NCBI GenBank assembly: GCA_040902395.1
Contig: JBBDXH010000084.1
Span: forward strand, 1-33,970
Origin: Dehalococcoidia bacterium
GTDB taxonomy: Bacteria; Chloroflexota; Dehalococcoidia; UBA2979
Length of the DNA: 33,970 bases
Direction: 5' to 3'
Both the position numbers and the translations under genes were made by a program. Numbering within the stretch: position 1 is the first letter of the stretch; each line of letters begins with the position of its first letter. Positions 4,164-31,400 of the stretch are shown here, in pieces. The notes beneath the pieces are model-generated. The model was not told where the DNA came from, ran no database searches, and saw only the letters and a program-made list of their open reading frames with translations.

Positions 4164-4745
4164 GTGATCACCAGCGAGCGGATCGAGCTGCGGAGGATGA
4201 GCGTCGAACTGCTCGACGCGCTGGCGGCGGGCGATCACGCCCACGCGCAGGCGCTCGCCGGATTCGCGATCGCGGACGCGTGGAGCCTGTGGGACCGCGC
4301 ACATGCGCGGACGCGCGCGGCCGAGCTGCGCGCCGTGCCGGAACGCGCGCCGTGGATCTCGCGCGCGATCGTCGAACGCGCGTCGGCTGTCATGGTCGGA
4401 CGCATGGGCTTCCACGACCGTCCCGGCGCGGACGACCTCGAGCCCTGGTCTCCGCGCGGCGACGGCCCCGGCGCGGTCGAGATCGGCTACGCGGTGTTCG
4501 CGCCGTATCGCGGCCGCGGCTACGCGAGCGAGGCCGCGGCCGCGTTGATCGACTGGGCGACCCGCCGCGGGATCGCGCAGGTGGTCGCGTCGGTGAGCCC
4601 GACGAACGCGGCCTCGCTGCGGGTGATCGCGCGGCTGGGGTTCGTGCGCGTGGGTGAGCGGATGGACGAGCGCGACGGGCTCGAGCACGTCTTCGTGCGG
4701 GACGCCCGCGTCGCGGCATGCGCGCCTGTGGCACCGCGACCATGA
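4164..4745 (+). CDS. GNAT family N-acetyltransferase (RimJ/RimL-like), 193 aa
   Basis: GTG start. N-terminal SERIELRR motif, acetyl-CoA motif YRGRGYASEA, and C-terminal SNxxSxRVxxKLGF-like motif (SPTNAASLRVIARLGFVRVG). Confidence 0.85.
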   Translation: MITSERIELRRMSVELLDALAAGDHAHAQALAGFAIADAWSLWDRAHARTRAAELRAVPERAPWISRAIVERASAVMVGRMGFHDRPGADDLEPWSPRGDGPGAVEIGYAVFAPYRGRGYASEAAAALIDWATRRGIAQVVASVSPTNAASLRVIARLGFVRVGERMDERDGLEHVFVRDARVAACAPVAPRP

Positions 4746-5308
4746 CGGCGCAGTCCGACGCCACGATCACGACGGCGCGGCTCGAGCTGCGCACCATGAC
4801 CGCGGACTTCCTCGAGGCCACGCTCTTCGGCGATCTCACGCGCGCGGAGGAGCTGGGCGGCTTCACGCTCTCCGAAGATTGGCCAGGTGAGTCGCCGCGG
4901 CTGCTGCGTCACTGGATCGACGCGCTGCGTGCGGACCCGGCCCGCGAGCCGTGGACGGCCCGCGCGATCGTGCAGCGCAGCGACGGGCTGATGGCCGGCC
5001 ACATCGGCTTCCACGACCGTCCGGGCGCCGCCTACCTCGAGCAGTGGGCGCCGGGCGCGAACGCGGTCGAGATCGGCTACACGGTCTTCGCCCGGCACCG
5101 CATGCTCGGCTATGCCACGGAGGCGGCGGCCGGGCTGATGGACTGGGCGTGGCTTCGTCACGGCGTCGACCGCTTCATCGCCTCGGTCAGTCCGGACAAC
5201 GCGCCGTCGCTGCGCGTGGTCGCGAAACTCGGCTTCGTCCGCATCGGCTCGCACATGGACGAAGTCGACGGGCCGGAGGACGTGTTCGAACGGCGCGTCC
5301 CGTCGTAG
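4742..5308 (+). CDS. GNAT family N-acetyltransferase, paralogue of the preceding gene, 188 aa
   Basis: ATG at 4742 overlaps the upstream TGA (ATGA at 4742-4745). TTARLELRTM.., HRMLGYATEA and SPDNAPSLRVVAKLGFVRIG align well by eye with the upstream GNAT. Confidence 0.85.
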   Translation: MTAQSDATITTARLELRTMTADFLEATLFGDLTRAEELGGFTLSEDWPGESPRLLRHWIDALRADPAREPWTARAIVQRSDGLMAGHIGFHDRPGAAYLEQWAPGANAVEIGYTVFARHRMLGYATEAAAGLMDWAWLRHGVDRFIASVSPDNAPSLRVVAKLGFVRIGSHMDEVDGPEDVFERRVPS

Positions 5309-5330
5309 CCGCGTGGCGGCGACCGGCCGC

Positions 5331-6068
5331 TCAGCCGGTCCGACGCCGCAGCGTGGCCGCGCCCAGTGCCAGCGCGATGAGCGTGGTCGCCAGCACCACG
5401 CCCGCGTCGAACGCCAGCCGGGCCGTGAGCGCCTGCGAGCCCGCGATCCGGGAGAGCGCCTCGAAGGCGTAGGTCATCGGCAGGTAGTCCGACGCGATCT
5501 CGAGCGGGCGCACCATCCCGCTGCGCGGCCCGAGCAACCCGCTCAGCAGGATCTGTGGGAGCAGGAACGCCGGCATGAACTGCACGGCCTGGAACTCGCT
5601 CTGCGCGAAGGCGCTGAGGAAGAGGCCGAAGGCCATGCCGTGGAGCGCGTTGAGCACCGCGATCGCGAGCACGGTCCAGAGCGGCGCGGAGATGCGCAGG
5701 TCGAGCACGGTCAGCGCGAAGACGGAGACGAGCAGCGTCTGCACGGCGGCGATCGCCGAGAAGGCCAGCGCGTACCCGGCGAGCAGATCGAGCTTCCCGA
5801 GCGGCAACGTCATCAGCCGCTCGAGCGTCCCGGAGCTGCGCTCGCGGAGCATGGTGATCGAGGTCACCAGGAACATCGAGACGAGCGGAAAGATACCGAG
5901 CAGCGGCACGCCGATGCCCTGGAAGATGCCGGGCCGGGCGTCGAACACCCAGCGAACCACGGCCAGCAGGAAGATCGGCACGGCCAGCAGCAGCACGATC
6001 GTGCGCGGATCGCGACGCAGCTGGCGGAGCACGCGTCGCGCGGTCGCGAGCGTCGCGCGCGCCGTCAC
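5331..6068 (-). CDS. ABC-2 type transporter permease, 245 aa
   Basis: This is the C-terminal 245 codons of track ORF 5331..6674. The GTG start at 6068 overlaps the upstream stop (GTGA). The protein has six hydrophobic segments and an N-terminal RRVLRQLRRDPRTIVLLL motif typical of ABC-2 permeases. The upstream part of the ORF is an Arg-rich shadow. Confidence 0.85.
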   Translation of the reverse strand: MTARATLATARRVLRQLRRDPRTIVLLLAVPIFLLAVVRWVFDARPGIFQGIGVPLLGIFPLVSMFLVTSITMLRERSSGTLERLMTLPLGKLDLLAGYALAFSAIAAVQTLLVSVFALTVLDLRISAPLWTVLAIAVLNALHGMAFGLFLSAFAQSEFQAVQFMPAFLLPQILLSGLLGPRSGMVRPLEIASDYLPMTYAFEALSRIAGSQALTARLAFDAGVVLATTLIALALGAATLRRRTG

Positions 6069-7912
6069 GATCGCTGCTCTCCGGCACCGCCGTGGCGCAC
6101 CAGCGCGAGGAACGCGCCTTCGATATCCCGGGCGCCCGTGCGCGCGAGCAGGCCGGCGGGCGTGTCCTGCGCAAGCACGGCGCCGTCGCGCATCAGCAGC
6201 ACCTCGTCGCAGCGCTCGGCTTCGTCCATGACATGCGTGGAGACGAGCAGCGTGGCCCCGCGCGCGGCGAGCGCGTGAAAGGTCGACCACAGCTCCTCGC
6301 GCAGCAACGGGTCGAGGCCGACCGTTGGCTCGTCGAGCACGAGCAACTCGGGATCGCCGAGCAGCACGGTCGCGAGCGAGACGCGCGCGAGCTGCCCGCC
6401 GGACAGGCGGCCGGTGATGCGCAACGCTTCGCCGCTGAGCCCGACCGCGTCGAGCGTCGCGTCGATCGCGTCGCGCCCGACGCCGAGCACGTGCGCGAAG
6501 TAGTCGAGGTTCTCGCGCACCGTGAGGTCGCGGTAGACCGACGGCGCCTGCGTGAGGTAGCCGACGCGGCGGCGCAGCGGCGCCGCGCCGGCGGGCAAGC
6601 CGAGCACGTCGACCGTGCCGGCGGCCACGGTCTGCACGCCGACGATCGCACGCATGAGCGTCGTCTTGCCGCATCCGCTCGGCCCGAGCAGCCCGGTGAC
6701 CCGCCCATGCGGGATGCGCAGCGAGAGGTCGCGCAGCACGACGTGGCCGCCCCGCACCACGCGCAGCGCGCGCACGTCAACCGCGGCGGCGGGCTCAACC
6801 TCGCCGGGCGGGCGGGCGCCCGGCGCGGCGGCGCCGCGCCGGCCGGCCGCCGCGGGCCGGGGGAGAGACCCCGCGTCGGGCGACGCGGGGCGGGAGAGCT
6901 GTCCGTCCTCGTCGACCGGATGGCCGTCATCGTCGCCTGCGAGCACGAGCCCGCGCGCGAACGACCACAGCGATCGTCGCCAATCGCCCACGTCTTCGCC
7001 ATTCGCGCGCCCCTGGCGGCCCTGGTCGCGCAGCACGTACGGCACCTCCGACGCGATCTCCGCGCCGAAGAGCGTGATGTTCGCCGTGAGGTATACCCAG
7101 AACATCAGCACGATCACGCTCGAGAGCGGGCCGTAGACGAGATCGAAGGCGGCGACGTTCGCCAGGTAGAAGGCGAAGCCCACCTTCAGGCCTTCGAACA
7201 GCAGGGCGGCGATCAGCGCACCCGGCCACGCATCGCGCACGCGGACCTCGCGGTTCGGGATCTGCCAGTAGAGCAGCAGGAAGGCAGCGAACGAGAGGGC
7301 CAGCGGGATCAGGAACGCGCCCAGCTCCCACAACCAGGACGTCCGCGCGAGGACGACGGGCAGCTCCTCGACGCGTAGCTGGGCGAGCCGCCACGCCGTG
7401 GTGAGCACGAGGCCACCGACGAACGGCAGCCCGATAATCGGGAGCAGCACGTAATCGAGCAGCTTGCCGCGGAGCATCGGACGGCCGCGTTGCGATTTGA
7501 AGATCACGTTCAGCGCCGAGCGGATCGCAGCGGCGAGCGCGCCGGCCGTCCACAACGCACCCACCAGCGACACGACCGATAGCGTCGGCCCCAGCGTCGC
7601 CGCGTTCGCGAGCGCCTCGCGCACGGTGTCGGTGTTGTCCGGGTTCAGTGGGAGCTGCGTGAAGAGCTGCTGGAGCACGCGCTCGCGCACGGAGCTCGAG
7701 CGCAGCACGATGCCGAAGACGGAGGCGGCGAGCAGCGTCACGGGGAAAAGGGCGAAGAGCCCGTAGTACGAGATCGCCGCGGAGAGGTGCGTCCCGTGGT
7801 CCTCGACGAAGCTCACCGTCGCGCGACCGAGGATGCGCAGTGCGACGCGGTGGGGCGCCCGCCACACGCGCACCGGGGTCGCGCTTGCGGTGTCCGCGCG
7901 CACGGGTGTCAC
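6065..7912 (-). CDS. YihY/BrkB-family membrane domain fused in frame to an ABC transporter ATP-binding domain, 615 aa
   Basis: GTG start at 7912. Residues about 25-295 carry the motifs AISYYGLFALFPV...ITLFGAEIASE (YihY/BrkB). Residues about 380-615 carry Walker A GPSGCGKT (6662-6685), LSGGQ, Walker B LLVLDEPT and the H-loop STH. No stop codon lies between the two domains, and the linker keeps the G/C third-position bias. Confidence 0.75.
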   Translation of the reverse strand: MTPVRADTASATPVRVWRAPHRVALRILGRATVSFVEDHGTHLSAAISYYGLFALFPVTLLAASVFGIVLRSSSVRERVLQQLFTQLPLNPDNTDTVREALANAATLGPTLSVVSLVGALWTAGALAAAIRSALNVIFKSQRGRPMLRGKLLDYVLLPIIGLPFVGGLVLTTAWRLAQLRVEELPVVLARTSWLWELGAFLIPLALSFAAFLLLYWQIPNREVRVRDAWPGALIAALLFEGLKVGFAFYLANVAAFDLVYGPLSSVIVLMFWVYLTANITLFGAEIASEVPYVLRDQGRQGRANGEDVGDWRRSLWSFARGLVLAGDDDGHPVDEDGQLSRPASPDAGSLPRPAAAGRRGAAAPGARPPGEVEPAAAVDVRALRVVRGGHVVLRDLSLRIPHGRVTGLLGPSGCGKTTLMRAIVGVQTVAAGTVDVLGLPAGAAPLRRRVGYLTQAPSVYRDLTVRENLDYFAHVLGVGRDAIDATLDAVGLSGEALRITGRLSGGQLARVSLATVLLGDPELLVLDEPTVGLDPLLREELWSTFHALAARGATLLVSTHVMDEAERCDEVLLMRDGAVLAQDTPAGLLARTGARDIEGAFLALVRHGGAGEQRS

Positions 7913-8004
7913 GCTGCAGTCCTCGTGATCTCGCTCGTCTCGATCGTCCGGCCCCGAACACCGATGCTAAGGGGCCTCAGGCTACGGGGCACCGGTGGAG
8001 AGCG

Positions 8005-9162
8005 ATGACCGGCGAGCGACTCAGACCCCAGCACATCCAGCATCGACGCGTGGTCGTGAAGGTCGGATCGAACGTCCTGACCGCCGGCAGCGACCGGCTG
8101 GACACGCGCACGATGGCCGGCCTGGTCGATCAGATCGCGGCGCTGATTGAGCGCGGCGGGGAAGTGGTGCTCGTCAGCTCGGGCGCGATCGCGGCGGGGC
8201 GCCAGCGCGTGGGGACACCCGCGGCGAACAGCGCGCTGAAGGCGCGCGGGGTGCACAGCCGCCAGGTGCTGGCCGCGATCGGGCAGAGCCGCCTGATGGC
8301 GCTGTGGGACACGATGTTCGACCAGGCACAGATCGTGATCGCGCAGGCGCTGCTGACGCGTGCCGACATCGCCGACCGGCTGCGCTACCTCAACGCGCGC
8401 AACACGCTCATGGGCCTGATCGAGATCGGCGTCGTGCCGATCGTGAACGAGAACGACGTCGTCTCCGTGGAGGAGCTGTCCACGTCCACGATCGGCGACA
8501 ACGACAACCTCTCGGCGCAGGTCGCCAACCTGATCGACGCCGACCTGCTGCTGATCCTGACCGACATCGACGGGCTGTACACGGCCGACCCCGCGCGTGA
8601 CCCGCACGCGCGCCTGATCGAACGCGTCGAGCGCGTGGATGCCGCGATCGAGCGCGCCGCGCGCGGCGCGCCGGGTGCGCGGGGCACCGGCGGCATGCTG
8701 ACCAAGGTGCAGGCCGCGCGCATCGCCACGCAGTCCGGGACGCACGTCGTGCTCGCGCGCGGCGCCGCGGAGGACGTCGTGCTGCGCGCGGCCGCAGGCG
8801 AGCCCGTGGGCACGCACTTCCTGCCGACCGGCGATCGCCTGGAGAGCCGGCTGCGTTACCTGCTCTCCGGACTCCAGATGCGGGGCCGCATCGAAGTGGA
8901 CGCGGGCGCCGCGCGTGCGCTGATGCAGGGCGGGAAGTCGCTGCTCCCGGCGGGCGTGACCGGGAGCACGGGCGAGTACCGGCGCGGTGACGTCGTACAG
9001 GTCGTCACCGCCGATGGGCAGGCCCTCGCGCGCGGCACGGTGAATTACGCGTCCGGCGAGGTGGCCCGCATCCTGGGCAAGCACTCCGATCAGATCGTCG
9101 GGATACTCGGCTACGAGTACGGGGAAGAGATCGTGCACCGCAACAACCTGGTGATCGTCTAG
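8005..9162 (+). CDS. proB: Glutamate 5-kinase with C-terminal PUA domain, 385 aa
   Basis: ATG at 8005 with GGTGGAGAG just upstream. Motifs: VVKVGSNVLT, VLVSSGAIAAG, NENDVVS, DNDNLSAQVA, and a PUA-like C-terminus (GRIEVDAGAARAL...RGDVV). Confidence 0.93.
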   Translation: MTGERLRPQHIQHRRVVVKVGSNVLTAGSDRLDTRTMAGLVDQIAALIERGGEVVLVSSGAIAAGRQRVGTPAANSALKARGVHSRQVLAAIGQSRLMALWDTMFDQAQIVIAQALLTRADIADRLRYLNARNTLMGLIEIGVVPIVNENDVVSVEELSTSTIGDNDNLSAQVANLIDADLLLILTDIDGLYTADPARDPHARLIERVERVDAAIERAARGAPGARGTGGMLTKVQAARIATQSGTHVVLARGAAEDVVLRAAAGEPVGTHFLPTGDRLESRLRYLLSGLQMRGRIEVDAGAARALMQGGKSLLPAGVTGSTGEYRRGDVVQVVTADGQALARGTVNYASGEVARILGKHSDQIVGILGYEYGEEIVHRNNLVIV

Positions 9163-12387: not shown

Positions 12388-12501
12388 CACGGCCTCGGAT
12401 CGGCAGGACGAACGTCCGTTGTTCGCCGCAGCCGCTCATTCGATCATCGATGCAGTGCAGGTGCGTGCGCACGCTCCGGGCCGCAGGAGAGGACCGACTT
12501 C

Positions 12502-13308
12502 GTGAGTGGAAACCGACGACGCGGCAGCCGGCGGCGCGAGCGAGCGGAGCGGCCTGCCGGGGAGACGCGAGCGGCCGGCGGTGGCGCGGGACGAGCGAAC
12601 GCGCGCCCCGGCTGGCGACGCACGCTCGACTCATGGGGCGGCTTCTCGGTCGTGGGGTCGATCCTCGGCGCGGTCGCCGTGGTCGTGGTGCTCGTGGTGC
12701 TCAACCGGCCCGGCTCGAGCGTGAGCGACGACCCGTACGTGCCCATCGCCCGCGCGGCGGTCGACGGCAAGAGCTGGGGCAGCGCAAGCGCGCCCGTCAA
12801 GGTCATCGAGTTCGCCGACTTCCAGTGCCCGTTCTGCCGAGCGTTCTCGCACGATGTCGAGCCGCTGCTCGCACAGGAGTTCATCGACGCCGGCACGGTG
12901 CAGTTGACCTACCACCACCTCGCGTTTCTCGGCCCGGAGTCCGGCCGCGCCGGGGAAGCGGCGGAGTGCGCGGCCGACCAGGGGCGCTTCTGGGACTATC
13001 ACGATCTGCTCTTCCTGCGGCAGGGCCGGGAGAACAGCGGCGCGTTCTCCAACGGCAACCTGAAGGACTTTGCCCGGGAACTGCGGGACGCATACGCGGA
13101 CTTCGACGTGGACACCTTCAATCGCTGTCTCGACTCCGGCGGCAAGCGCGCAGTGGTCGATGCCGCCACGCAGGAGGCGGCGAGCGCGGGGATCGCGCAG
13201 ACGCCGTCTTTCCTGATCAACGGGAAGTTGCTGACGGCGAGCCAGAGCATCGAGGTCTTCCGCCAGGCGATCCAGCAGGCGCTGGCGGCGTCGGGGGCGG
13301 GGAGCTAG
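12502..13308 (+). CDS. DsbA-family thiol:disulfide oxidoreductase, membrane-anchored, 268 aa
   Basis: GTG start with AGGAGAGG upstream. One TM segment. Active site CPFC at 12826-12837 in EFADFQCPFCRAF, with QTPSFLINGK near the C-terminus. Confidence 0.88.
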   Translation: MSGNRRRGSRRRERAERPAGETRAAGGGAGRANARPGWRRTLDSWGGFSVVGSILGAVAVVVVLVVLNRPGSSVSDDPYVPIARAAVDGKSWGSASAPVKVIEFADFQCPFCRAFSHDVEPLLAQEFIDAGTVQLTYHHLAFLGPESGRAGEAAECAADQGRFWDYHDLLFLRQGRENSGAFSNGNLKDFARELRDAYADFDVDTFNRCLDSGGKRAVVDAATQEAASAGIAQTPSFLINGKLLTASQSIEVFRQAIQQALAASGAGS

Positions 13309-13314
13309 CGGGGC

Positions 13315-13770
13315 GTGCGGTCGCGGCGCGTCGACGCGTTGACTGCGCTTTCGGCCGTGGGCGTCGCGATCGCGGCCTACCTCACGTTCGTGGCGTTCGA
13401 CGCGAACGCGGAGGCGTTCTGCACCGGCGTCGGCGACTGCCGGCGGGTGCAGGACTCGCAGTACGCCCGCGTCGCCGGGGTCCCGGTGGCGGCGCTCGGC
13501 CTGGCGATGTACATCGCGCTGCTCGGCCTCGGCCTCGCGCGTCGCGCGGGGCTGACGGTGCTGGGGCCGGGCACGCCCCGCCTGCTGGGCACATGGACGT
13601 TCGCGCTCGCCTTCGCCGGCGCGCTGTATTCGGGGTACCTCACGTACCTCGAGTTCTTCGTGATCGACGCGATCTGCGATTGGTGCGTGACCTCGGCTGC
13701 GATCGTGACGACGATCGCGGTACTCGCATGGCCCGATCTGCGGCACCCCACAAGCGATGCCCCGCCCTGA
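13315..13770 (+). CDS. Vitamin K epoxide reductase (VKOR) family protein, 151 aa
   Basis: Four hydrophobic segments. Loop cysteines in FCTGVGDC, and CDWC (13675-13686) at the start of the last TM segment. The gene begins 6 nt after the DsbA gene. Confidence 0.85.
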   Translation: MRSRRVDALTALSAVGVAIAAYLTFVAFDANAEAFCTGVGDCRRVQDSQYARVAGVPVAALGLAMYIALLGLGLARRAGLTVLGPGTPRLLGTWTFALAFAGALYSGYLTYLEFFVIDAICDWCVTSAAIVTTIAVLAWPDLRHPTSDAPP

Positions 13771-17578: not shown

Positions 17579-17618
17579 CGAGCTGGTGTTCGCCTGCCGA
17601 ACACCAGTTCTGTATAGT
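17579..17618 (+). promoter_or_regulatory. Two adjacent LexA (SOS) box-like sites overlapping a TGTATAGT -10-like element upstream of ruvB
   Basis: CGAGCTGGTGTTCG at 17579-17592 has one mismatch to CGAAC-N4-GTTCG. CGAACACCAGTTCT at 17598-17611 matches GAAC-N4-GTTC. Together they form a perfect 10-bp inverted repeat, 17583-17592/17598-17607. TATAGT lies at 17613-18, and the ruvB ATG is at 17639. Confidence 0.5.
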
Positions 17619-17638
17619 GGCGTACGCAGGAGGGCCCG

Positions 17639-18685
17639 ATGTCCGAACGTGCCGGACCACTGACGCCAGCCCTCACCGACGACGATGCCGGCGTCGAGTC
17701 GACGCTTCGTCCTCGGCGCCTGGAGCAGTACTTCGGCCAGGAGCGCATCAAGGAGAGCCTGCTCATCGGCATCGAGGCGGCGCGCATGCGCGAGGAGCCG
17801 CTCGACCATCTCCTCTTCCACGGCCCGCCCGGACTGGGCAAGACGACACTCGCGATGATCGTCGCCGCCGAAATGGGCGTCTCGATCCGCATCACCTCCG
17901 GCCCGGCGATCGAACGCGCGGGCGATCTCGCCTCGCTGCTCACCAGCCTCCAGCCCGGCGACATCCTCTTCATCGACGAGATCCACCGGCTCTCGCTCGC
18001 GGTCGAGGAGGTGCTCTATCCGGCGATGGAGGACTTCTCCGTCGATATCATCCTCGGCAAAGGCCCCAAGTCCCGGGACGTGCGCCTCAAACTGCATCGC
18101 TTCACGCTGATCGGTGCGACGACGCGCTTCGCGCTCGTCTCACAGCCGCTGCGCGACCGCTTCGGTGCGTCCTACCGGCTGGAGTTCTACGACGAAGCGG
18201 CCCTCGCGCAGATCGTGCGTCGGTCCGCTGTCGTGCTCCACTGCCGCATCGACGAGGGCGGCGTCGGCGAGATCGCGCGACGCTCGCGCGGAACGGCGCG
18301 CGTGGCGAACCGCCTGCTCCGCCGCGTGCGCGACTACGCCGACGTGCGGGCCGACGGCGTGATCACCAGCGCAGTCGCGTCGGACGCACTCGCCCAGCTG
18401 CAGATCGACGGGCTCGGACTGGACCAGATGGACCGCGAACTGATGACCGCGCTCGCCGAGCGCTTCGGTGGCGGCCCCGTCGGCCTCGAGACGCTCGCCG
18501 CCGCAATCTCGGATGAGTCCGACACGATCATGGACGTCTACGAGCCATACCTGCTCAAGATCGGCTTTCTCCAGCGCACGCCCCGCGGGCGCATCCTCAC
18601 GCGCCTCGGCTACGGACACCTCGGGCTCGAAGCGCCGACCGGCGCCGGACTCATGCAGTCGTCGCTGTTCGACGACGACGAGTAG
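17639..18685 (+). CDS. ruvB: Holliday junction branch migration DNA helicase RuvB, 348 aa
   Basis: Motifs: [17 protein letters not shown], Walker [12 protein letters not shown], Walker [11 protein letters not shown], and TLIGATTR. Winged-helix C-terminus with [14 protein letters not shown]. Confidence 0.96.
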
Positions 18686-20195: not shown

Positions 20196-20392
20196 CGTTC
20201 GTTCCTCCTTCGCATGAGCGGCCGCATGCGATGGGTCGGTGGGTCGGCGCTCAGCGTAGCGCGAGCCGGCACGCCGGCGACATGGACGCGAATGCGCAGC
20301 GACGCCGGCATGCGGCACGTCTGATTGAGGTCGCCCGCTGCCCGTCGTATGGCGACGTGCGCGCCGACCTGCGCTCGACCGGTCGTCACCGA

Positions 20393-20398
20393 TATAAT
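20393..20398 (+). promoter_or_regulatory. Perfect TATAAT -10 hexamer upstream of htpX
   Basis: GATATAATGAG lies 53 nt before the htpX ATG. I did not find a good -35 element. Confidence 0.35.
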
Positions 20399-20450
20399 GA
20401 GTTCCGTACCGCAACCGCGCGCACCACCGTTCGAAGAGTGTGAATCCCCG

Positions 20451-21263
20451 ATGCAGAATCTGAAGACCGTCGTCCTGCTCGCCGCGATCAGCGGCTTGTT
20501 GATCGCGATCGGAGGGGCGATCGGCGGAACCAGCGGCGTGATCGCGTTTGCCGTGATCGCGGCCGTGATGAACTTCGCTTCGTACTGGTTCTCCGCCGAT
20601 ATCGTGCTCCGCACCGCGCACGCCCGCGAGATCGAGCGCTCCGAGGATCCCGAGTTGTTCCGCCTGATCGAGCAGGTGGCCGCGGACGCCGGCATGCCGA
20701 TGCCGCGCGTCTACTCGATCGATTCGCCCCAGCCGAATGCGTTCGCCACCGGACGTGGCCCCAGTCACGCGGCTGTGGCCGTGACCTCCGGGATTCGCGC
20801 GCTGCTGACGCCGCGTGAGCTGCGGGGCGTGCTGGGCCACGAAATGGCGCATGTGAAGAACCGCGACATCCTGACGTCGTCGATCGTGGCGACGATCGCG
20901 TCCGCGATCTCGATGGTCGCGTGGATGTCGCTGTGGTTTGGTGGGCGACGCGATGGCGCGACCGGACTGGTCGCGGCGCTGATCGCGCCGATCGCGGCGA
21001 CGCTCATCCAGCTCGGGATCAGCCGCTCGCGGGAGTACCAGGCAGACAGCGACGGCGCGCGCATCGTGCAGGATCCGGACGCGCTCGCATCGGCGCTCGC
21101 GAAGCTCGAAAGCGGCGCGCGACGCGTGCCGATGCAGGTGCCGGAAGCGACCGCGCACCTCTTTATCGTGAACCCGTTCAGCGGACGCCAGGCCGCGGGG
21201 CTGTTCGCCACACACCCGCCGATTGAGCAGCGCATCGAGCGCCTGCGGCGTATGCGCGTCTAG
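20451..21263 (+). CDS. htpX: Zinc metalloprotease HtpX (peptidase M48), 270 aa
   Basis: ATG at 20451 (MQNLKTVVLLA..). Motifs: NAFATG, HEMAH zinc motif (GHEMAHVKNRD), SRSREYQADSDGA, and THPPIEQRIERL. Confidence 0.93.
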   Translation: MQNLKTVVLLAAISGLLIAIGGAIGGTSGVIAFAVIAAVMNFASYWFSADIVLRTAHAREIERSEDPELFRLIEQVAADAGMPMPRVYSIDSPQPNAFATGRGPSHAAVAVTSGIRALLTPRELRGVLGHEMAHVKNRDILTSSIVATIASAISMVAWMSLWFGGRRDGATGLVAALIAPIAATLIQLGISRSREYQADSDGARIVQDPDALASALAKLESGARRVPMQVPEATAHLFIVNPFSGRQAAGLFATHPPIEQRIERLRRMRV

Positions 21264-23125: not shown

Positions 23126-24241
23126 TTAGATGCCGAGCTGCTGCGCCACGAGCTCGCGGTGGTAGTCGGCATCGCCGAAGGCCAGCTCGGCTCGCTTCTG
23201 CCGGCGGAAGTACAGCTGGATCTTGTAGTCCTTCGTGAAGCCGATCCCGCCGTGGATCTGCTGACCGTGTGCGACGACGCGACGCGTGGCCTCGGACGTC
23301 CACGCCTTCGCCATGTTCACCGCGAGCTGGGCCTCGTCGGCGGGCTGATCGGTGGCCAGCGACCACGCGGCCTTGTACATGATGAAGCGCGAACCGTCGA
23401 CGTCGGTGACCATGTCCGCGCACTTGTGCTGGATCGCCTGGAACGATCCGATGGGGCGCCCGAACTGGACGCGCTCCTTGGCGTAGTCGACCGAGATCTC
23501 GAAGTCCATCTGCGAGAGCCCCACGAGGTACGCGCACTCGGCGACGGTGTAGCGCTGGATCACCGGCGCGAGCAGCGCCCAGCCCTGCCCGTTCGCGCCG
23601 AGCAGCTGGCCCTTCGCGTTGTTCAGCTTGACCTCGGCCTGCTTGTCGCGGGCGATCGTCAGCAGCGACGTGACTTCAACGCCGGCCTGGTCCGTGGGCA
23701 CGATGCCGAGCGTGATGCCGGCGGCGGAACGCCCGGCGACGATCATGTAGTCGGCCACGTTGGCGTCGGAGACGAACAACTTCGTGCCGGTGAAGGTGAC
23801 GTCGTTGCCGCTCACGGTCGCCTGGCACTGCACGCCCTGCTCGTCGAAGCGCGCGGAGGGTTCCGTCAACGCGAGCGTGAAGATCAGGTCGCCGGAGGCG
23901 ATCTTCGGGAGGAACTCTGCCTTCTGGGCGTCGGAACCGGCAGTCATCAGCGGCACCGCGCCACCGAGCACCGTGGACATGAACGGCCCCGGGACGAGCG
24001 CGCGGCCGAACTCTTCGAGCAGCACGCAGAGATCCAGAAAGTCGAACCCCGCGCCGCCGAGCTCCTCGGGGATGAGCAGACCCTGCCAGCCCTGTTCTGC
24101 CATCTTCTGCCAGAGCTGCGGGGAGTAGCCCTTCTCGTCCTCCTCCATCTCGCGCACGAGCGCCTCCGGGCATTCGTTCTCGAGGAAGTCGCGGGCCGCG
24201 TTCTTCAGGAGTTCCTGCGTTTCGCTCAGACCGAGATCCAT
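23126..24241 (-). CDS. Acyl-CoA dehydrogenase family protein (possible non-catalytic partner subunit), 371 aa
   Basis: ATG at 24241 (MDLGLSETQELLKNAARDFL). Motifs: TEPSA, FGRPIGSFQAIQHKCADM, and HGGIGFTKDYKIQLYFRR. The C-terminal AELAFGDADYH occupies the position of the usual YEGT motif. Confidence 0.9.
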   Translation of the reverse strand: MDLGLSETQELLKNAARDFLENECPEALVREMEEDEKGYSPQLWQKMAEQGWQGLLIPEELGGAGFDFLDLCVLLEEFGRALVPGPFMSTVLGGAVPLMTAGSDAQKAEFLPKIASGDLIFTLALTEPSARFDEQGVQCQATVSGNDVTFTGTKLFVSDANVADYMIVAGRSAAGITLGIVPTDQAGVEVTSLLTIARDKQAEVKLNNAKGQLLGANGQGWALLAPVIQRYTVAECAYLVGLSQMDFEISVDYAKERVQFGRPIGSFQAIQHKCADMVTDVDGSRFIMYKAAWSLATDQPADEAQLAVNMAKAWTSEATRRVVAHGQQIHGGIGFTKDYKIQLYFRRQKRAELAFGDADYHRELVAQQLGI

Positions 24242-24317
24242 GTCCTGTCCCTCTCTAGGTGCCCACGTGCGTCGGGGCGGCCGTGTTATATCGACTGGCT
24301 CGCGTCGCGTCCAGCCG

Positions 24318-25532
24318 CTAGCCGCGCGGCAGGCCGAGGCCGCGCGTGGCAATCACGTTGCGCTGAATCTCGGACGACCCCGAGAAGATCGTGTGTGGCA
24401 CCGAGCGGACGTAGTCGCGCGTAAAGCGCGCCTCGAGCGGCGCGCGCGGCGTCGCGCGATCCCAGATGTTCCCGTACAGCCCGAACGCGCGCGCCCCGGT
24501 GAGCGCGAGGCGCTGATGCAGCTCCGAGCCGAAGAGCTTGTTCGCGGATGCCTCGTAGTTCGGCACCATCCCACGGTTCTGCAACGACACGATGCGGAAC
24601 GCGAAGTTGAACAGCACTTCGGTCTCGATCCGCCGGTCGGCCAGCGCGAGGCGCGTGGTCGCGAAGTCCGGACGGGCGAAGCCCTTGCCCGCGTCCGTGT
24701 GCACGAAGTCGACCAGCGTCGTGATCTCGCGTGCGTACTGCGTAGCGCCGGCGATGCCCGACCGCTCGAAGTCGAGCAGCGTCATCCCGACGTACCAGCC
24801 GCGGTTCTCCTCACCGACGCGGTTCCGCACAGGCACACGCACGTCTTCGAAGAAGGTCTCGTTGAACGGCTGTTGCCACCCCATGTCTGTGAGCGGCCGC
24901 ACGGTGAGACCCGGGGTCTTGATGTCCATCATGACGAAGGAGATGCCACGGTGCTTGGGCGCCTCCGGATCGGTGCGCACGAGCGCGAACAACCAGTCCG
25001 CGAACTGCGCGCCTGAGGTCCAGATCTTCTGACCGTTGATCACGTAGTCGTCGCCATCACGGACCGCGCGCGTCTGGAGCGACGCGAGGTCCGAGCCGGC
25101 GCCGGGCTCGGAGTAGCCCTGTGCCCACGCAACCTCGCCGGAGAGGATCTTCGGGAGATGCTCCTGCTTCTGCTCGTCCGAACCGTGGACGATCAGCGTC
25201 GGCCCGATCAAAGAGACACCCATGCCGCCGACGGCGGGCGCCTCCGCGGTGGCCATCTCCTGATTGAAGATGAACTGCTCGATCACCGACAGGCCGGCAC
25301 CACCGAACTCCGTCGGCCAGTGGGGGGCGACCCATCCCTTCTCGGCGAGCGCGTTCGCCCACTCGATCGCCGTTTGCCGACGGGCCGGATCTGCGGACTT
25401 GCGGTCCGCCTGCCAGCCGCTCGCCTCCTCACCATCCGCCGCGGTGCGGTACGGGTCCGGCAGTCGAACCCGGAGGAATTCGCGGACTTCCGCCCGGAAC
25501 GTCGCCTGGGTTGCGCTATCGCTCCAATCCAT
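24318..25532 (-). CDS. Acyl-CoA dehydrogenase family protein, 404 aa
   Basis: ATG at 25532 (MDWSDSATQATFRAEVREFL) with AGGAAGAAGG upstream. Motifs: GYSEPGAGSDLAS, KIWTSGA, LLDFERSGIAG, and IFSGSSEIQRNVIA. Confidence 0.9.
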   Translation of the reverse strand: MDWSDSATQATFRAEVREFLRVRLPDPYRTAADGEEASGWQADRKSADPARRQTAIEWANALAEKGWVAPHWPTEFGGAGLSVIEQFIFNQEMATAEAPAVGGMGVSLIGPTLIVHGSDEQKQEHLPKILSGEVAWAQGYSEPGAGSDLASLQTRAVRDGDDYVINGQKIWTSGAQFADWLFALVRTDPEAPKHRGISFVMMDIKTPGLTVRPLTDMGWQQPFNETFFEDVRVPVRNRVGEENRGWYVGMTLLDFERSGIAGATQYAREITTLVDFVHTDAGKGFARPDFATTRLALADRRIETEVLFNFAFRIVSLQNRGMVPNYEASANKLFGSELHQRLALTGARAFGLYGNIWDRATPRAPLEARFTRDYVRSVPHTIFSGSSEIQRNVIATRGLGLPRG

Positions 25533-25795
25533 TGGGACCTTCTTCCTGCCGGCGGTGTTCGGCCGCTCGACCATGGCGTAGACAAACTCAGCGCTCCGCC
25601 GCATGCGGTCGGAGCGTCACGACGCTAGGCTGGCCACTCTCGGGCGCGCCGGCCGTCACCGAGTATGGTCAACAGCGTGAGCACTATCTGGCGCGCCCGT
25701 GCGCGGGTCAACCTGAGGACGGGGCGCCGTTCTCAGGAGGGTTGCCCCGGATCATCAGAATGACTCCGCAGCATCTTGGTGGGGGGAAACCCTAG

Positions 25796-27961
25796 TTGAC
25801 CCGTTCCAGTCCTACTACGCATGATTCTCCTGTGCCGGACCAGTTATTGCGGGTCGGTCAGGTGACAGGTGACGGGCGATGGAGCTCGCACGTGTGGAAT
25901 CCGGGCCGGTGGGCACTTGCGATCGTCATCGCCGTACTGGCGGTGATGTTCGGCGCTCCCGCGACCGCGCACGCGGACGATACGTTCGCCGACCTGTGCG
26001 CCCGCGTCTCAGATGAGGCCGCGGGCTCCAGGGTGAAGATGGGGATCGTGGTGATTGACCTCGCGACCGACGCGCGGTGCGACGTAAACGCCGACGACAC
26101 GTTCCGAACGGCGTCGCTCTACAAGCTCGTGGTGCTCGCGGAAGCCTACCGCCAGGCGGCGGAGGGGACGTTCGACTTCTCGGCTCCGATCGACCTCGAG
26201 CCGCGACACGCGATCGATGACCCGCCGAGCTTCCAGCTCACGGAGACGATCACCATCGGGCGCACCGAAGCACTGGGCCGCATGATCCGGCTCTCGGACA
26301 ATGCCTCGGCCGCCGCCTTGCGCGAGCGCCTCGGCTATGCGGAGGTCGCCGCCGAGCCCGCGCGCCTGGGCATGCAGCACACCGAGCTCAGTGAAACGGC
26401 GTTCGTCTCGACACCGTCGGACATCGCACAGCTGGTCACGAATCTCTACCGCGGGACCGTGGTGGACGCCGCCAGCAGCGAAGCCATGATGGACCTGCTC
26501 AAGCAGCAGGGGGTCACCGACCTCATCCCCGTGGGCCTGCCGGACGGCACGGTGATCGCCCACAAGACCGGCACCCTCGACACCGTGCTCCACGACGTCG
26601 GCGTGGTCTATGCGCCGGCTGGCGACTACGTGCTGGTCGCGATGACGCAGCACGAGTCCGACTACCCCGCCGCCGCGCGGGCGATCCAGGAGCTCTCGCG
26701 CACGGTCTACGCGGCATACGGCGGAACCACGCCGCCGTACGCCGTCAACGAACGCCTGGAACAGCGAGTCGCGGCGACGCGGCTGATCAACGTGATCCCG
26801 GTCGAGCTCCTGCAGACGGCGCCGGCCGAAGCTCTCGTGGCCGCGCCTGCAGCGGCGATCGCGCCCGCTGCGGAGCCCCCCTTCATTGAGTCGTCCGGGT
26901 CGCCCTTCGGGCGGCTCGACGCGCCGGTCGTCCCTGCCGTCGCACTCGCGATGTTGCTGTTGACACCGGCCATGGTGTTCGCCGCGCGCACCTGGAACGC
27001 GCGGCGGGGACGGCGACCGGTATTCGCCGAAGTTGAGAGCCGGCTCATTCCGGCGGGAAGGTCTCCCCAGATGCGTTTTGGAAACAGGCGAGAACAAGAT
27101 GATCAGTACGACCAGTACGAGGAGGAACAGCCCGTGACACGCGCGGCCGCGACCACCGAGATGGGCGCGCCGGCGATGCTGCCCTCGCGCCGCTTGCAGC
27201 GCGTTGGCGAGCTGTTCCGCACGCACGCCGAGTTGCTCGACCAGATGCGCGCGCAGTTCCAGGACGAACTGCAGCCGCTCAACGAGCTGCTCGCTCGTCA
27301 GGCGGCGACCATGCAGCAGCTCCTGCTCAACCTCGAGCAGCGGCTGCGCCCGCTCAACGAGTACGCGGACAGCGAAGAGTCGAACCTCGAGTCGCTGGAG
27401 CGACGCATGCGCGAGTCCGGCAGCGACTTTGTGACGCGCTCGTTCTCCGAGTACGTCCTGCAGCAGCGCAAGCGGATCGCCGAGACGCGCCAGCAGATCG
27501 ACCAGCAGCGCACGCCGTTCTCGCAGTACGGCGAAGATCAGCGCGACGCGGTCGAAGTCGCGCTCGCGCGCTTCGATGAAGACGTGGAGAACCTCGAGCT
27601 CAACCTCGCGGACCAGCGCAAGGTCATGATGCGGATGCTCGACTCGATGCGCTCGGAGAGCTTCGCCGCGGTCAAGGAGTACCTCCAGAACCGCGAAGAA
27701 GTGATGTCCGAGCTGGCCACAAGCGGCATGACCGACCCGAGCGAGATCGGTCGCTCGGTGCAGGCGCTCCGCCAGAGCATCGAGGCGATGGCGCAGGAGT
27801 CGGCGCACATCCAGTCCGTCCTCCAGACGACGGACGAGGCAGACCGCCGCCTGTCACGCACGGTAGCGGGAAGCACCGCCGGGCCGCGCCCACTGCCGAG
27901 CCAGACCCGGCAAACCGCCTCGGTCGCGGTCTCGGCGAACGATGAGGAAGCGAGCGCCTAG
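25796..27961 (+). CDS. Membrane protein of 721 aa: N-terminal signal/anchor, class-A beta-lactamase-like (serine hydrolase) ectodomain, TM helix, approx. 320-aa cytoplasmic coiled-coil region
   Basis: TTG start at 25796 (uncertain). Hydrophobic segment WALAIVIAVLAVMFGAPATAHA. SxxK motif ASLYK (Ser codon 26114-26116), SDN in RLSDNASAAAL, and KTG in AHKTGTLD. Second TM segment VVPAVALAMLLLTPAMVFAA (approx. 26924-26992), followed by NARRGRR. The Q/E/L/R-rich heptad-like C-terminus keeps strong third-position G/C bias. Confidence 0.8.
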   Translation: MTRSSPTTHDSPVPDQLLRVGQVTGDGRWSSHVWNPGRWALAIVIAVLAVMFGAPATAHADDTFADLCARVSDEAAGSRVKMGIVVIDLATDARCDVNADDTFRTASLYKLVVLAEAYRQAAEGTFDFSAPIDLEPRHAIDDPPSFQLTETITIGRTEALGRMIRLSDNASAAALRERLGYAEVAAEPARLGMQHTELSETAFVSTPSDIAQLVTNLYRGTVVDAASSEAMMDLLKQQGVTDLIPVGLPDGTVIAHKTGTLDTVLHDVGVVYAPAGDYVLVAMTQHESDYPAAARAIQELSRTVYAAYGGTTPPYAVNERLEQRVAATRLINVIPVELLQTAPAEALVAAPAAAIAPAAEPPFIESSGSPFGRLDAPVVPAVALAMLLLTPAMVFAARTWNARRGRRPVFAEVESRLIPAGRSPQMRFGNRREQDDQYDQYEEEQPVTRAAATTEMGAPAMLPSRRLQRVGELFRTHAELLDQMRAQFQDELQPLNELLARQAATMQQLLLNLEQRLRPLNEYADSEESNLESLERRMRESGSDFVTRSFSEYVLQQRKRIAETRQQIDQQRTPFSQYGEDQRDAVEVALARFDEDVENLELNLADQRKVMMRMLDSMRSESFAAVKEYLQNREEVMSELATSGMTDPSEIGRSVQALRQSIEAMAQESAHIQSVLQTTDEADRRLSRTVAGSTAGPRPLPSQTRQTASVAVSANDEEASA

Positions 27962-29174: not shown

Positions 29175-29244
29175 GGCGAGTTCCTTCCCGCGAGCGCAGC
29201 GACAGTACCGCCGGACCGTGCGACCGTGAAGCGCGCCGGGAAAG

Positions 29245-31312: not shown

Positions 31313-31400
31313 CATGTCTCCGCACATCGGAGCACGAACGAGCTGCTGACGCCGCCGCATCCGCCCCGCCACCGCGACGGGTCCGCGAGGGGAGTATCGC

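What the first reader, a model, noticed from the sequence alone, without database searches (positions are those of the whole stretch)
5331..7912. YihY/BrkB membrane domain covalently fused to an ABC ATPase and coupled to an ABC-2 permease
One uninterrupted 615-codon frame joins a complete YihY/BrkB-type polytopic domain (residues about 25-295) to a complete ABC nucleotide-binding domain (residues about 380-615; Walker A at 6662-6685). The joining linker is about 85 residues long and rich in Pro, Ala, Gly and Asp. Codons across the linker (approx. 6776-7030) keep the strong G/C third-position bias of this frame, which argues that it is translated rather than being a spacer between two genes. 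The stop overlaps the GTG of an ABC-2 permease (GTGA, 6065-6068), so all parts are made together. YihY/BrkB has no established biochemical function, and the old RNase BN label is regarded as erroneous. A physical link to an ATP-driven ABC-2 exporter would therefore be a direct functional clue, pointing to an accessory transmembrane or substrate-handling module of an exporter. I do not recall this architecture being described.
Basis: partly seen in the sequence, partly recalled or inferred. Interest (0 to 1): 0.65.

Follow-up and report, generated by a model that had tools for sequence, protein, structure and literature searches.

The report
Young YihY–ABC ATPase gene fusion
In one uncultured Dehalococcoidia lineage, a membrane protein of unknown function (YihY) and the ATPase of the neighbouring ABC-2 exporter have merged into a single reading frame; the merger is real but recent and confined to that lineage, so it says little about what YihY does in general.

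Summary
Window 6065-7912 (-) is one 615-codon ORF with a full YihY/BrkB domain, a full ABC ATPase domain with all motifs intact, and a GTGA overlap with a 245-aa ABC-2 permease. Four independent assemblies carry the same 615-codon ORF with no length change, so it is not an assembly error.

The functional reading is weakly supported:
- The "linker" is the native C-terminal tail of this YihY clade: a conserved helix followed by a variable low-complexity tail.
- The closest relatives have yihY and the ATPase as separate genes, with an ATGA or GTTGA overlap or an 11-nt spacer. The ATPase frame is open far upstream there, so a single indel would fuse them.
- One relative has deleted the cassette and keeps only a scar. 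Three others lack it.
- None of 80 other YihY loci has an ABC ATPase within 5 kb. None of 80 loci with the nearest ATPases has yihY.
- Related ATPases are fused to unrelated upstream enzymes, and another YihY is fused to a NUDIX domain.

Both domains stay under purifying selection. The product is most likely a tolerated, membrane-tethered ATPase that still drives the ABC-2 permease. Interest is modest.

The parts
6065..7912 (-). 615-codon YihY-ABC ATPase fusion ORF (GTG start at 7912, TGA stop at 6065-6067)
   Evidence: the same ORF in L001, P0391 and L169
7920..7924 (-). Shine-Dalgarno-like GAGGA, 8-12 nt upstream of the fusion start
   Evidence: duplex -5.9 kcal/mol against a background mean of -2.6; identical in L001
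7040..7804 (-). YihY/BrkB membrane domain (residues 37-291), six TM helices, N-in/C-in
   Evidence: Pfam, E 5.9e-56; TIGR00765 at 123.6 bits against a cut-off of 73; AF2 model pLDDT 83.7; hydropathy and K+R distribution
6923..7027 (-). Conserved cytoplasmic tail of this YihY clade (residues 296-330; GDWRRSLWSFARGLVLAG, helix 311-323)
   Evidence: Alignment A1 with 30 stand-alone YihY proteins; AF2 helix; 0 of 35 aa differences among the four fusion proteins
6788..6922 (-). Variable Ala/Pro/Gly/Arg-rich tail that now acts as the tether (residues 331-375). It contains the former stop/start junction of the two genes
   Evidence: 10-11 of 45 aa differ among the fusion proteins, with no indel; dN/dS about 3.6, from 11.5 non-synonymous against 1.5 synonymous changes
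6068..6787 (-). ABC nucleotide-binding domain (residues 376-615). Walker A 6662-6685, Q-loop 6548-6556, LSGGQ 6392-6406, Walker B 6329-6346, D-loop 6311-6319, H-loop 6233-6241
   Evidence: dN/dS 0.17 against L001
6773..6775 (-). In-frame GTG (residue 380), used as the start of a 236-aa ATPase in the public annotation of this record (P0273). It has no Shine-Dalgarno site
5331..6068 (-). ABC-2 permease, 245 aa. Its GTG start overlaps the fusion's stop (GTGA)
   Evidence: the same arrangement in L169
6077..6082 (-). Shine-Dalgarno-like GGAGAG upstream of the permease start, inside the end of the ATPase coding sequence
   Evidence: -6.6 kcal/mol; the same in L001
7913..8004 (.). 92-nt divergent intergenic region between the fusion and proB, presumably holding the promoters (none recognised)
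8005..9162 (+). proB (glutamate 5-kinase with PUA domain), the conserved divergent neighbour of this yihY clade (context only, not part of the transporter)

Best explanation
This is a recent, lineage-restricted fusion of two neighbouring genes that were already translationally coupled.

How it arose (inferred from relatives): an ancestor of this Dehalococcoidia sub-clade acquired a two-gene ABC-2 exporter cassette (ATPase plus permease) directly downstream of yihY. Relatives still have yihY and the ATPase as separate genes joined by an ATGA or GTTGA stop/start overlap or by an 11-nt spacer. In the window's lineage, change in the variable GC-rich yihY tail removed the stop and put the ATPase in frame. 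The net length difference from L167 is 37 nt, which is 1 mod 3.

What is made (inferred from the sequence): every ribosome that starts at GTG 7912 now produces a 615-aa protein. It consists of a six-helix YihY domain with its C-terminus in the cytoplasm, its native tail helix, an unconstrained tether of about 45 residues, and an intact ATPase domain.

How it most likely works (inferred, not shown): two tethered ATPase domains dimerise on a dimer of the co-translated ABC-2 permease and drive export as in ordinary ABC-2 (DrrAB-like) exporters. YihY keeps its own unknown function. The fusion is tolerated, not required, and reveals little about YihY biochemistry beyond co-expression.
For: Real ORF: four independent assemblies carry 615 codons, with substitutions but no indel.

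Derived and young:
- L167 (YihY 78%, ATPase 85% identity) has an ATGA overlap.
- L002 has a GTTGA overlap.
- L166 has a stop, 11 nt, then ATG.

Easy to make: the ATPase frame is open for 36, 527 and 281 codons upstream of the ATPase start in L167, L002 and L166, so one indel in the tail gives an in-frame fusion.

The linker is the native YihY tail.

The cassette is not tied to YihY:
- L168 keeps yihY followed by only the last 34 permease codons.
- L003, L165 and L105 have yihY directly followed by a GNAT gene, with no cassette.
- 0 of 80 YihY genome loci have an ATPase by tblastn or by motif scan, while the motif scan finds 72 of 80 positive controls.
- 0 of 80 loci with the nearest ATPases have yihY, although 65 have at least 300 nt and 49 at least 900 nt of upstream sequence.

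Fusions of neighbours are common here: carboxyltransferase, PAP2 and BKACE domains fused to ATPases of 50-65% identity, and YihY fused to NUDIX.

Still functional: dN/dS is 0.05 for YihY, 0 for the conserved tail and 0.17 for the ATPase, against 0.17 for proB. All ATPase motifs are intact.

Topology fits: six TM helices, positive-inside loops and a cytoplasmic C-terminus (bioRxiv 10.64898/2026.03.31.715626).

The long product is expected: the fusion and permease starts have Shine-Dalgarno sites, and the internal GTG 6775 has none.
Against: No expression or protein data exist; no RNA runs were found.

The cassette has stayed directly behind yihY, translationally coupled and without its own Shine-Dalgarno site, across lineages that differ by about 30% in protein sequence. 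That could reflect selection for co-production rather than chance.

The fused state has persisted to dS of about 0.07 with both halves constrained. This is also what a beneficial fusion would show.

Literature reports physical association of the YihY paralogue YhjD with ABC ATPases: LptB (PMC3219608) and RbbA (PMC3083400, retracted).

My searches cannot enumerate every PF03631+PF00005 protein in nature, so independent fusions elsewhere are not excluded.
Confidence: 0.6

Rival explanations
1. Functional module. In this sub-clade YihY is a genuine accessory or substrate-handling membrane subunit of the ABC-2 exporter. Operon coupling came first, and the fusion fixed a 1:1 stoichiometry, as in other ABC half-transporters.
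For: yihY, the ATPase and the permease are co-directional and translationally coupled in L167, L002, L166 and the window, and the ATPase has no Shine-Dalgarno site of its own. The ATPases of the window and L002 group together, consistent with one old acquisition that was retained. Both domains are under purifying selection after the fusion. The C-in topology is compatible. The YihY paralogue YhjD co-purified with LptB and bound rough LPS (PMC3219608).
Against: The cassette is deleted or absent in four close relatives that keep yihY. There is no ATPase near 80 other YihY genes and no yihY near 80 closest ATPases. The tether sequence is unconstrained. The same ATPase clade is fused to unrelated enzymes. 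The conserved partner of this yihY clade is proB, not an ABC system.
Confidence: 0.22
2. Two products in practice. Although the frame is continuous, the working ATPase is made on its own from the internal GTG 6775, as the public annotation has it, or is released by proteolysis in the disordered tail. The 615-aa chain is then a minor or transient species.
For: The record's own annotation calls a 236-aa ATPase from GTG 6775 (P0273). Residues 331-375 are low-complexity, unconstrained and likely disordered, so they are protease-accessible. Stand-alone homologues start within about 5 residues of that position.
Against: There is no stop codon between 7912 and 6065, so YihY translation must run into the ATPase. 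GTG 6775 has no Shine-Dalgarno site (-2.4 kcal/mol, equal to background), whereas the fusion and permease starts have one. Other gene callers (JGI, ENA, Logan) aa.
Confidence: 0.13
3. Artefact. A sequencing or assembly indel in the GC-rich tail falsely joins two genes.
For: The region is about 85-90% GC and low-complexity. Relatives have separate genes in different frames. The Logan contigs of the best-matching run break at 6843-6850.
Against: Four assemblies from different pipelines and samples have the same frame and length while differing by 10-11 amino acids in the tail. No indel is seen in contigs of four runs.
Confidence: 0.03

Closest known systems
Two-gene ABC-2 (DrrAB/NodIJ-like) exporters: a stand-alone ATPase plus an ABC2_membrane permease
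   Same: The ATPase domain (all motifs) and the 245-aa permease are ordinary members. 76 of the 80 nearest loci have the same ATPase-then-permease order.
   Different: Here the ATPase has a complete, unrelated six-TM protein on its N-terminus. Scores are below the equivalog cut-offs for DrrA, DrrB, NodI and RbbA, so the substrate is unknown.
Stand-alone YihY/BrkB proteins of Dehalococcoidia (340-390 aa), divergent from proB
   Same: 49-78% identity. They share the six-TM domain, the conserved tail motif GDWRRSL..RGLVLAG, a variable low-complexity C-terminus and the proB neighbour.
   Different: They end in a stop codon after the variable tail. Here the tail runs into an ATPase.
L167 / L002 / L166: yihY, ATPase and permease as separate, translationally coupled genes
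   Same: Same synteny (S11 peptidase, methyltransferase, proB, yihY, ATPase, permease, GNAT, ileS) and the same cassette.
   Different: They have a stop/start overlap (ATGA, GTTGA) or an 11-nt spacer instead of a continuous frame.
ATPase-permease fused half-transporters of the same ATPase clade (for example P0058, P0065, P0081; 440-550 aa)
   Same: The same ATPase family is covalently linked to a membrane domain.
   Different: There the partner is the cognate ABC-2 permease, on the C-terminal side. Here it is YihY, on the N-terminal side, and the permease stays separate.
E. coli YhjD (a YihY-family paralogue) and its reported links to ABC machinery
   Same: A YihY-family protein associated with ABC ATPases or exporters. 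YhjD co-purified with LptB (PMC3219608). A YhjD substitution suppresses Kdo-depletion lethality together with MsbA (Mamat 2008, as cited). Co-purification with RbbA was also reported (PMC3083400, RETRACTED).
   Different: There is no fusion and no adjacency there, the setting is the LPS pathway of a diderm, and part of the evidence is retracted. That YhjD belongs to PF03631 is from my own knowledge and was not tested here.
Accidental read-through fusions of neighbouring genes in high-GC genomes
   Same: Carboxyltransferase, PAP2 and BKACE domains fused to closely related ATPases, and YihY fused to NUDIX. Alternative frames are open for long stretches.
   Different: Here the fusion is verified in four assemblies and both halves are shown to be under purifying selection.

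Membership tests
YihY/BrkB family (PF03631; TIGR00765 yihY_not_rbn) | Profile match above the curated cut-off | tested here: met
   PF03631 at 190.4 bits (cut-off 33.7), profile positions 2-256 of 259. TIGR00765 at 123.6 bits (cut-off 73.15).
YihY/BrkB family (PF03631; TIGR00765 yihY_not_rbn) | Six transmembrane helices with N- and C-termini in the cytoplasm | tested here: met
   Hydropathy peaks near residues 52-70, 112-130, 155-173, 197-215, 232-250 and 262-284. K+R is enriched in the N-terminus, loops 135-154 and 216-231, and the tail. The AF2 model has pLDDT 83.7. Topology as stated in bioRxiv 10.64898/2026.03.31.715626. This is a prediction only.
ABC ATPase (PF00005) | Walker A, Q-loop, LSGGQ signature, Walker B with catalytic Glu, D-loop, H-loop | tested here: met
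   GPSGCGKT 410-417, LTQ 453-455, LSGGQ 503-507, LLVLDE 523-528, GLD 532-534, STH 558-560. PF00005 at 98.7 bits.
ABC-2 type exporter (ATPase + PF01061 permease) | ABC2_membrane permease encoded next to, and coupled with, the ATPase | tested here: met
   PF01061 at 91.6 bits (cut-off 26.9). GTGA overlap and a Shine-Dalgarno site at 6077-6082.
DrrAB daunorubicin-type exporter (TIGR01188 / TIGR00025 / TIGR01247) | Score above the subfamily cut-off | tested here: not met
   drrA 156.3 bits against 312.45. Mtu_efflux/DrrB family 100.6 against 146.9. drrB 38.6 against 223.
RbbA (NF033858: two ATPase domains plus ABC-2 permease in one chain) | Full-length match above cut-off; two ATPase domains fused to the permease | tested here: not met
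   187 bits against 1050. Only one ATPase domain is matched (profile positions 262-504), and the permease is a separate gene.
Informative 'Rosetta-stone' fusion (a fusion that signals a functional partnership) | Fusion found in several independent lineages | tested here: not met
   Only one 90% cluster (three members) plus the window. None of the best 150 among 1.84 billion representatives has both domains. Caveat: rare fusions can be hidden inside clusters of single-domain proteins.
Informative 'Rosetta-stone' fusion (a fusion that signals a functional partnership) | Conserved adjacency or co-occurrence of the separate components across the family | tested here: not met
   Adjacent only in L167, L002 and L166. 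Absent in L003, L165, L105 and L168, in 80 YihY genome loci and in 80 ATPase loci.
Informative 'Rosetta-stone' fusion (a fusion that signals a functional partnership) | Partner domains are not promiscuous fusers | tested here: not met
   The same ATPase clade is fused to carboxyltransferase, PAP2 and BKACE domains and to its permease. YihY is fused to NUDIX.
Informative 'Rosetta-stone' fusion (a fusion that signals a functional partnership) | Physical or functional interaction of the two parts | not testable with these tools
   This needs multimer modelling with co-evolution, pull-downs or transport assays.

The most novel reading that the evidence does not exclude
YihY-family proteins are membrane partners of ABC-2 type exporters. 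For example, they could present or release a lipid-linked or amphipathic substrate. This Dehalococcoidia lineage would then have captured that partnership in one polypeptide, giving the first structural handle on the long-unknown function of YihY/BrkB. It would echo the reported YhjD-LptB/MsbA links in E. coli.
Probability: 0.15. Interest if true: 0.6.

Novelty: new variant of a known kind. Interest (0 to 1): 0.28.

Why it matters
YihY/BrkB is one of the most widespread bacterial inner-membrane families without a function, so any physical link would be valuable. Here the link turns out to be a young, one-lineage fusion of neighbouring genes. It is of a kind that high-GC genomes with overlapping stop/start junctions produce easily, and its value as a functional clue is therefore low.

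It is still useful in three ways:
- It is a clean, datable natural example of gene fusion by frame change at a coupled junction, with separate, fused and deleted states all sampled.
- It shows that an ABC ATPase seems to tolerate being tethered to an unrelated six-TM protein.
- It flags an annotation problem. The public record calls only a 236-aa ATPase, so no product of this ORF includes the YihY domain.

Tried and rejected
It returned only ATPase loci and not even L001. I used it as a test of what lies upstream of the nearest ATPases instead.

2. The representative-library search found no two-domain protein in the best 150. The fusion's own cluster was not shown as such either, so this library can hide rare fusions. 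I treat it as weak negative evidence.

3. A MAFFT alignment of the fusion with YihY-only and ATPase-only proteins (A2) placed the ATPases over the YihY part. I therefore did not predict the full-length structure. With only near-identical full-length sequences available, no inter-domain co-evolution signal would exist anyway.

4. The fold search of the YihY model against the PDB gave no significant match (best E 0.09, TM 0.24 or less).

5. No RNA runs were found. There were no Rfam families, no tRNAs, and no sigma-70-like promoter or intrinsic terminator in 5100-8150.

6. I rejected GC3 periodicity as evidence of translation of the tail, because GC1 and GC3 are almost the same there.

7. Literature searches found no description of a YihY-ABC fusion and no established YihY function.

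8. I considered independent double acquisition of the cassette. The neighbour-joining tree of the ATPases groups the window/L001 with L002, and L168 keeps a deletion scar. These favour one gain followed by losses, though the tree is a simple distance tree without support values.
Full report

Yes. The minus strand of 6065-7912 is a single 615-codon ORF.
- Pfam places a nearly full-length Virul_fac_BrkB domain at residues 37-291 (190 bits) and ABC_tran at residues 393-530 (98.7 bits).
- NCBIfam agrees: yihY_not_rbn is above its cut-off. For the ATPase there are many ABC hits, none above an equivalog cut-off.
- Walker A is at 6662-6685 as stated, and all six catalytic motifs of an ABC ATPase are intact.
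- The TGA at 6065-6067 overlaps the GTG of a 245-aa ABC2_membrane protein at 5331-6068.

The frame is not an assembly error. The 90% cluster of the nearest homologue holds three 615-aa proteins from JGI, Logan and ENA assemblies. The ENA contig shows the same fusion and the same overlapping permease. Contigs of four further runs laid on the region show no indel in the linker. The four proteins differ at 10-11 of 45 positions in the variable tail yet have the same length.

**2. What is the 'linker'?**

I aligned the window protein with 30 stand-alone YihY proteins of the same clade, which are 338-447 aa long.
- Residues 296-330 (...GDWRRSLWSFARGLVLAGDD...) are a conserved tail motif of these proteins. 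It is predicted to form a helix at 311-323 (AF2 model of residues 1-330, pLDDT 83.7).
- It is followed in every homologue by a variable Ala/Pro/Arg/Glu-rich tail before the stop.
- The 85-residue linker is therefore simply the complete native C-terminus of YihY, now without its stop.
GC by codon position there is 0.93/0.73/0.91, and other frames are open too.
- The better evidence for frame maintenance is comparative: no indels among four assemblies.

**3. Where does it come from?**

YihY relatives come from uncultured Dehalococcoidia and other Chloroflexota MAGs. The sources are sediment, soil and groundwater metagenomes. The neighbourhood is conserved in close relatives: ileS, GNAT, [cassette], yihY, divergent proB, methyltransferase, S11 peptidase, DsbA, VKOR.

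**4. State of the junction in relatives**

| Locus | Identity to window | State of the junction |
|---|---|---|
| L167 (GCA_027622315.1) | YihY 78%, proB 86%, ATPase 85% | yihY stop and ATPase start overlap as ATGA |
| L002 | YihY 69%, ATPase 72% | GTTGA overlap |
| L166 | YihY 69% | stop, 11-nt spacer, ATG |
| L168 | YihY 78% | yihY stop followed directly by the last 34 codons of the permease: a deletion scar |
| L003/L004, L165, L105 | YihY 66-68% | yihY followed by the GNAT gene, no cassette |

A neighbour-joining tree of YihY plus proB puts (window, L001) as sister to ((L105, L165), (L003, (L166, L002))). The ATPases of the window/L001 and L002 group together. The simplest history is therefore:
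1. one acquisition of the two-gene cassette behind yihY;
2. retention as coupled but separate genes;
3. several losses;
4. one late fusion.

In the relatives, the ATPase frame is stop-free for 36, 527 and 281 codons upstream of the ATPase start. A single indel of the right phase anywhere in the variable tail would give an in-frame fusion. The window differs from L167 by a net 37 nt (1 mod 3) across this stretch.

**5. Is the pairing general?**

No.
- Of 80 genome loci with YihY relatives (30-66% identity, 5-kb flanks), none has any ABC ATPase, whether tested by tblastn or by an independent motif scan that recovers 72 of 80 positive controls.
- The conserved neighbour is proB, which lies adjacent and divergent in 30 of these loci.
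- Of 80 metagenome loci with the nearest ATPases (40-72% identity), 76 have the ABC-2 permease downstream and none has yihY. Of these, 65 have at least 300 nt and 49 at least 900 nt of upstream sequence.
- Protein searches found no other two-domain protein. They cannot enumerate architectures exhaustively.
- The same ATPase clade occurs fused to a carboxyltransferase, a PAP2 phosphatase and a BKACE fragment, and very often to its own permease. A different Dehalococcoidia YihY is fused C-terminally to a NUDIX domain.
- Read-through fusions with whatever lies next door are thus a recurrent by-product of high-GC genomes. The ABC ATPase is a promiscuous fusion partner.

**6. Is the fused protein functional?**

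Probably. dN/dS values between the window and L001:

| Segment | dN/dS | Note |
|---|---|---|
| YihY domain | 0.05 | |
| Conserved tail | 0 | |
| ATPase | 0.17 | |
| proB (neighbour, for comparison) | 0.17 | |
| Variable tail | about 3.6 | 11.5 non-synonymous against 1.5 synonymous changes; not significantly above 1 |

The variable tail is therefore unconstrained in sequence.
- The predicted topology (six TM helices, positive-inside, C-terminus in the cytoplasm) puts the ATPase on the correct side of the membrane.
- A tether of 45-80 residues is long enough to reach a permease dimer (inference).
- Shine-Dalgarno-like sites precede the fusion start (-5.9 kcal/mol) and the permease start (-6.6 kcal/mol). 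The internal GTG 6775 scores -2.4 kcal/mol, equal to the ORF background.
- In L166 and L002 the separate ATPase gene also lacks a Shine-Dalgarno site. Even before the fusion, its translation probably depended on ribosomes arriving from yihY.
- The public annotation of this very record nevertheless calls a 236-aa ATPase from GTG 6775 (P0273). The JGI, ENA and Logan gene calls give 615 aa.

**7. Mechanism proposed**

Shown:
- a continuous ORF;
- intact domains;
- coupling to the permease;
- the derived and restricted nature of the fusion;
- purifying selection on both halves.

Inferred:
- The 615-aa product sits in the membrane through YihY.
- Its ATPase domains dimerise on the ABC-2 permease dimer and power export of an unknown substrate.
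- YihY keeps its own role.
- The fusion is selectively near-neutral.

I give this 0.6. A true YihY-exporter partnership gets about 0.2. Support for it comes from the long-lasting translational coupling and from reports that the paralogue YhjD associates with LptB, MsbA and RbbA (PMC3219608; PMC3083400, retracted). Separate production of the ATPase, or cleavage of the long chain, gets about 0.13. An artefact gets about 0.03.

**8. Comparison with known systems and novelty**

The parts are ordinary members of PF03631, PF00005 and PF01061. The ATPase and permease do not reach the DrrA, DrrB, NodI or RbbA cut-offs, so the system is a generic ABC-2 exporter of unknown substrate. I found no description of a YihY-ATPase chain in the literature held here, and YihY itself remains of unknown function. 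The architecture is therefore a new variant of a known kind. It is shallow and probably incidental.

**9. Verdict**

Interest is about 0.28.

Noticed in passing
window 6065-6775 (-) versus 6065-7912 (-): The public record behind this window annotates only a 236-aa ABC ATPase starting at the internal GTG 6775 (P0273, listed as the window's own protein). The exact 615-aa sequence is not in the protein collection. No product of this ORF in that annotation therefore includes the YihY domain.
   Followed up: partly
L168:1054-1180: In a relative with 78% YihY identity, the yihY stop (GTGA) is followed directly by the last 34 codons of the ABC-2 permease (71% identical to window permease residues 212-245). 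This is a deletion scar that removed the ATPase and most of the permease.
   Followed up: yes
L167:6712-7454: In the closest relative with separate genes, the permease matches in two overlapping pieces in different frames (residues 1-228 and 203-245), and no gene is called there. It is either a frameshifted pseudogene or a MAG assembly error.
   Followed up: partly
L085 (WHSU01000006.1), protein P0008: Another Dehalococcoidia YihY (547 aa) carries a C-terminal NUDIX domain (residues 360-435) after its BrkB domain. This is a second, unrelated C-terminal fusion of the YihY tail.
   Followed up: partly
proteins P0066, P0075, P0059 (homologues): ATPases 50-65% identical to the window's are fused N-terminally to a complete carboxyltransferase, a PAP2 phosphatase and a BKACE fragment. 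These are probably read-through fusions with upstream neighbours.
   Followed up: partly
window 7913-9162 and loci L085-L112, L117, L118: yihY is divergently paired with proB (glutamate 5-kinase with PUA domain) in 30 of the 80 genome loci and in all close relatives. In 11 more distant loci proB lies 3-5 kb downstream. This is a much more conserved linkage than the one with the ABC cassette, and it is unexplained.
   Followed up: partly
window 4164-4745 and 4718-5308 (+): Two tandem GNAT (Acetyltransf_3) paralogues overlap by 28 nt. L167 also has two, whereas L003 and L165 have one.
   Followed up: no
window 6923-7027 (-), residues 296-330: The tail motif GDWRRSLxxxxRGLVLAG is conserved in this Dehalococcoidia YihY clade. 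It is predicted to be helical (residues 311-323) and is invariant among the four fusion proteins. Its role is unknown; it lies outside the Pfam domain.
   Followed up: partly
window 12388-13770 (+): A DsbA-like thioredoxin-fold protein is followed directly by a VKOR-family protein, a likely disulfide-bond formation pair. It is syntenic in L003.
   Followed up: no
window 25796-27961 (+), 29230-31131 (+), 31350-33970 (+): A 721-aa protein with a Beta-lactamase2 domain, a 633-aa subtilase (S8) and the 5' part of rpoB running off the window end. Also present are two adjacent acyl-CoA dehydrogenase genes (23126-25616, -), ruvB (17618-18685) and an M48 peptidase (20325-21263).
   Followed up: no
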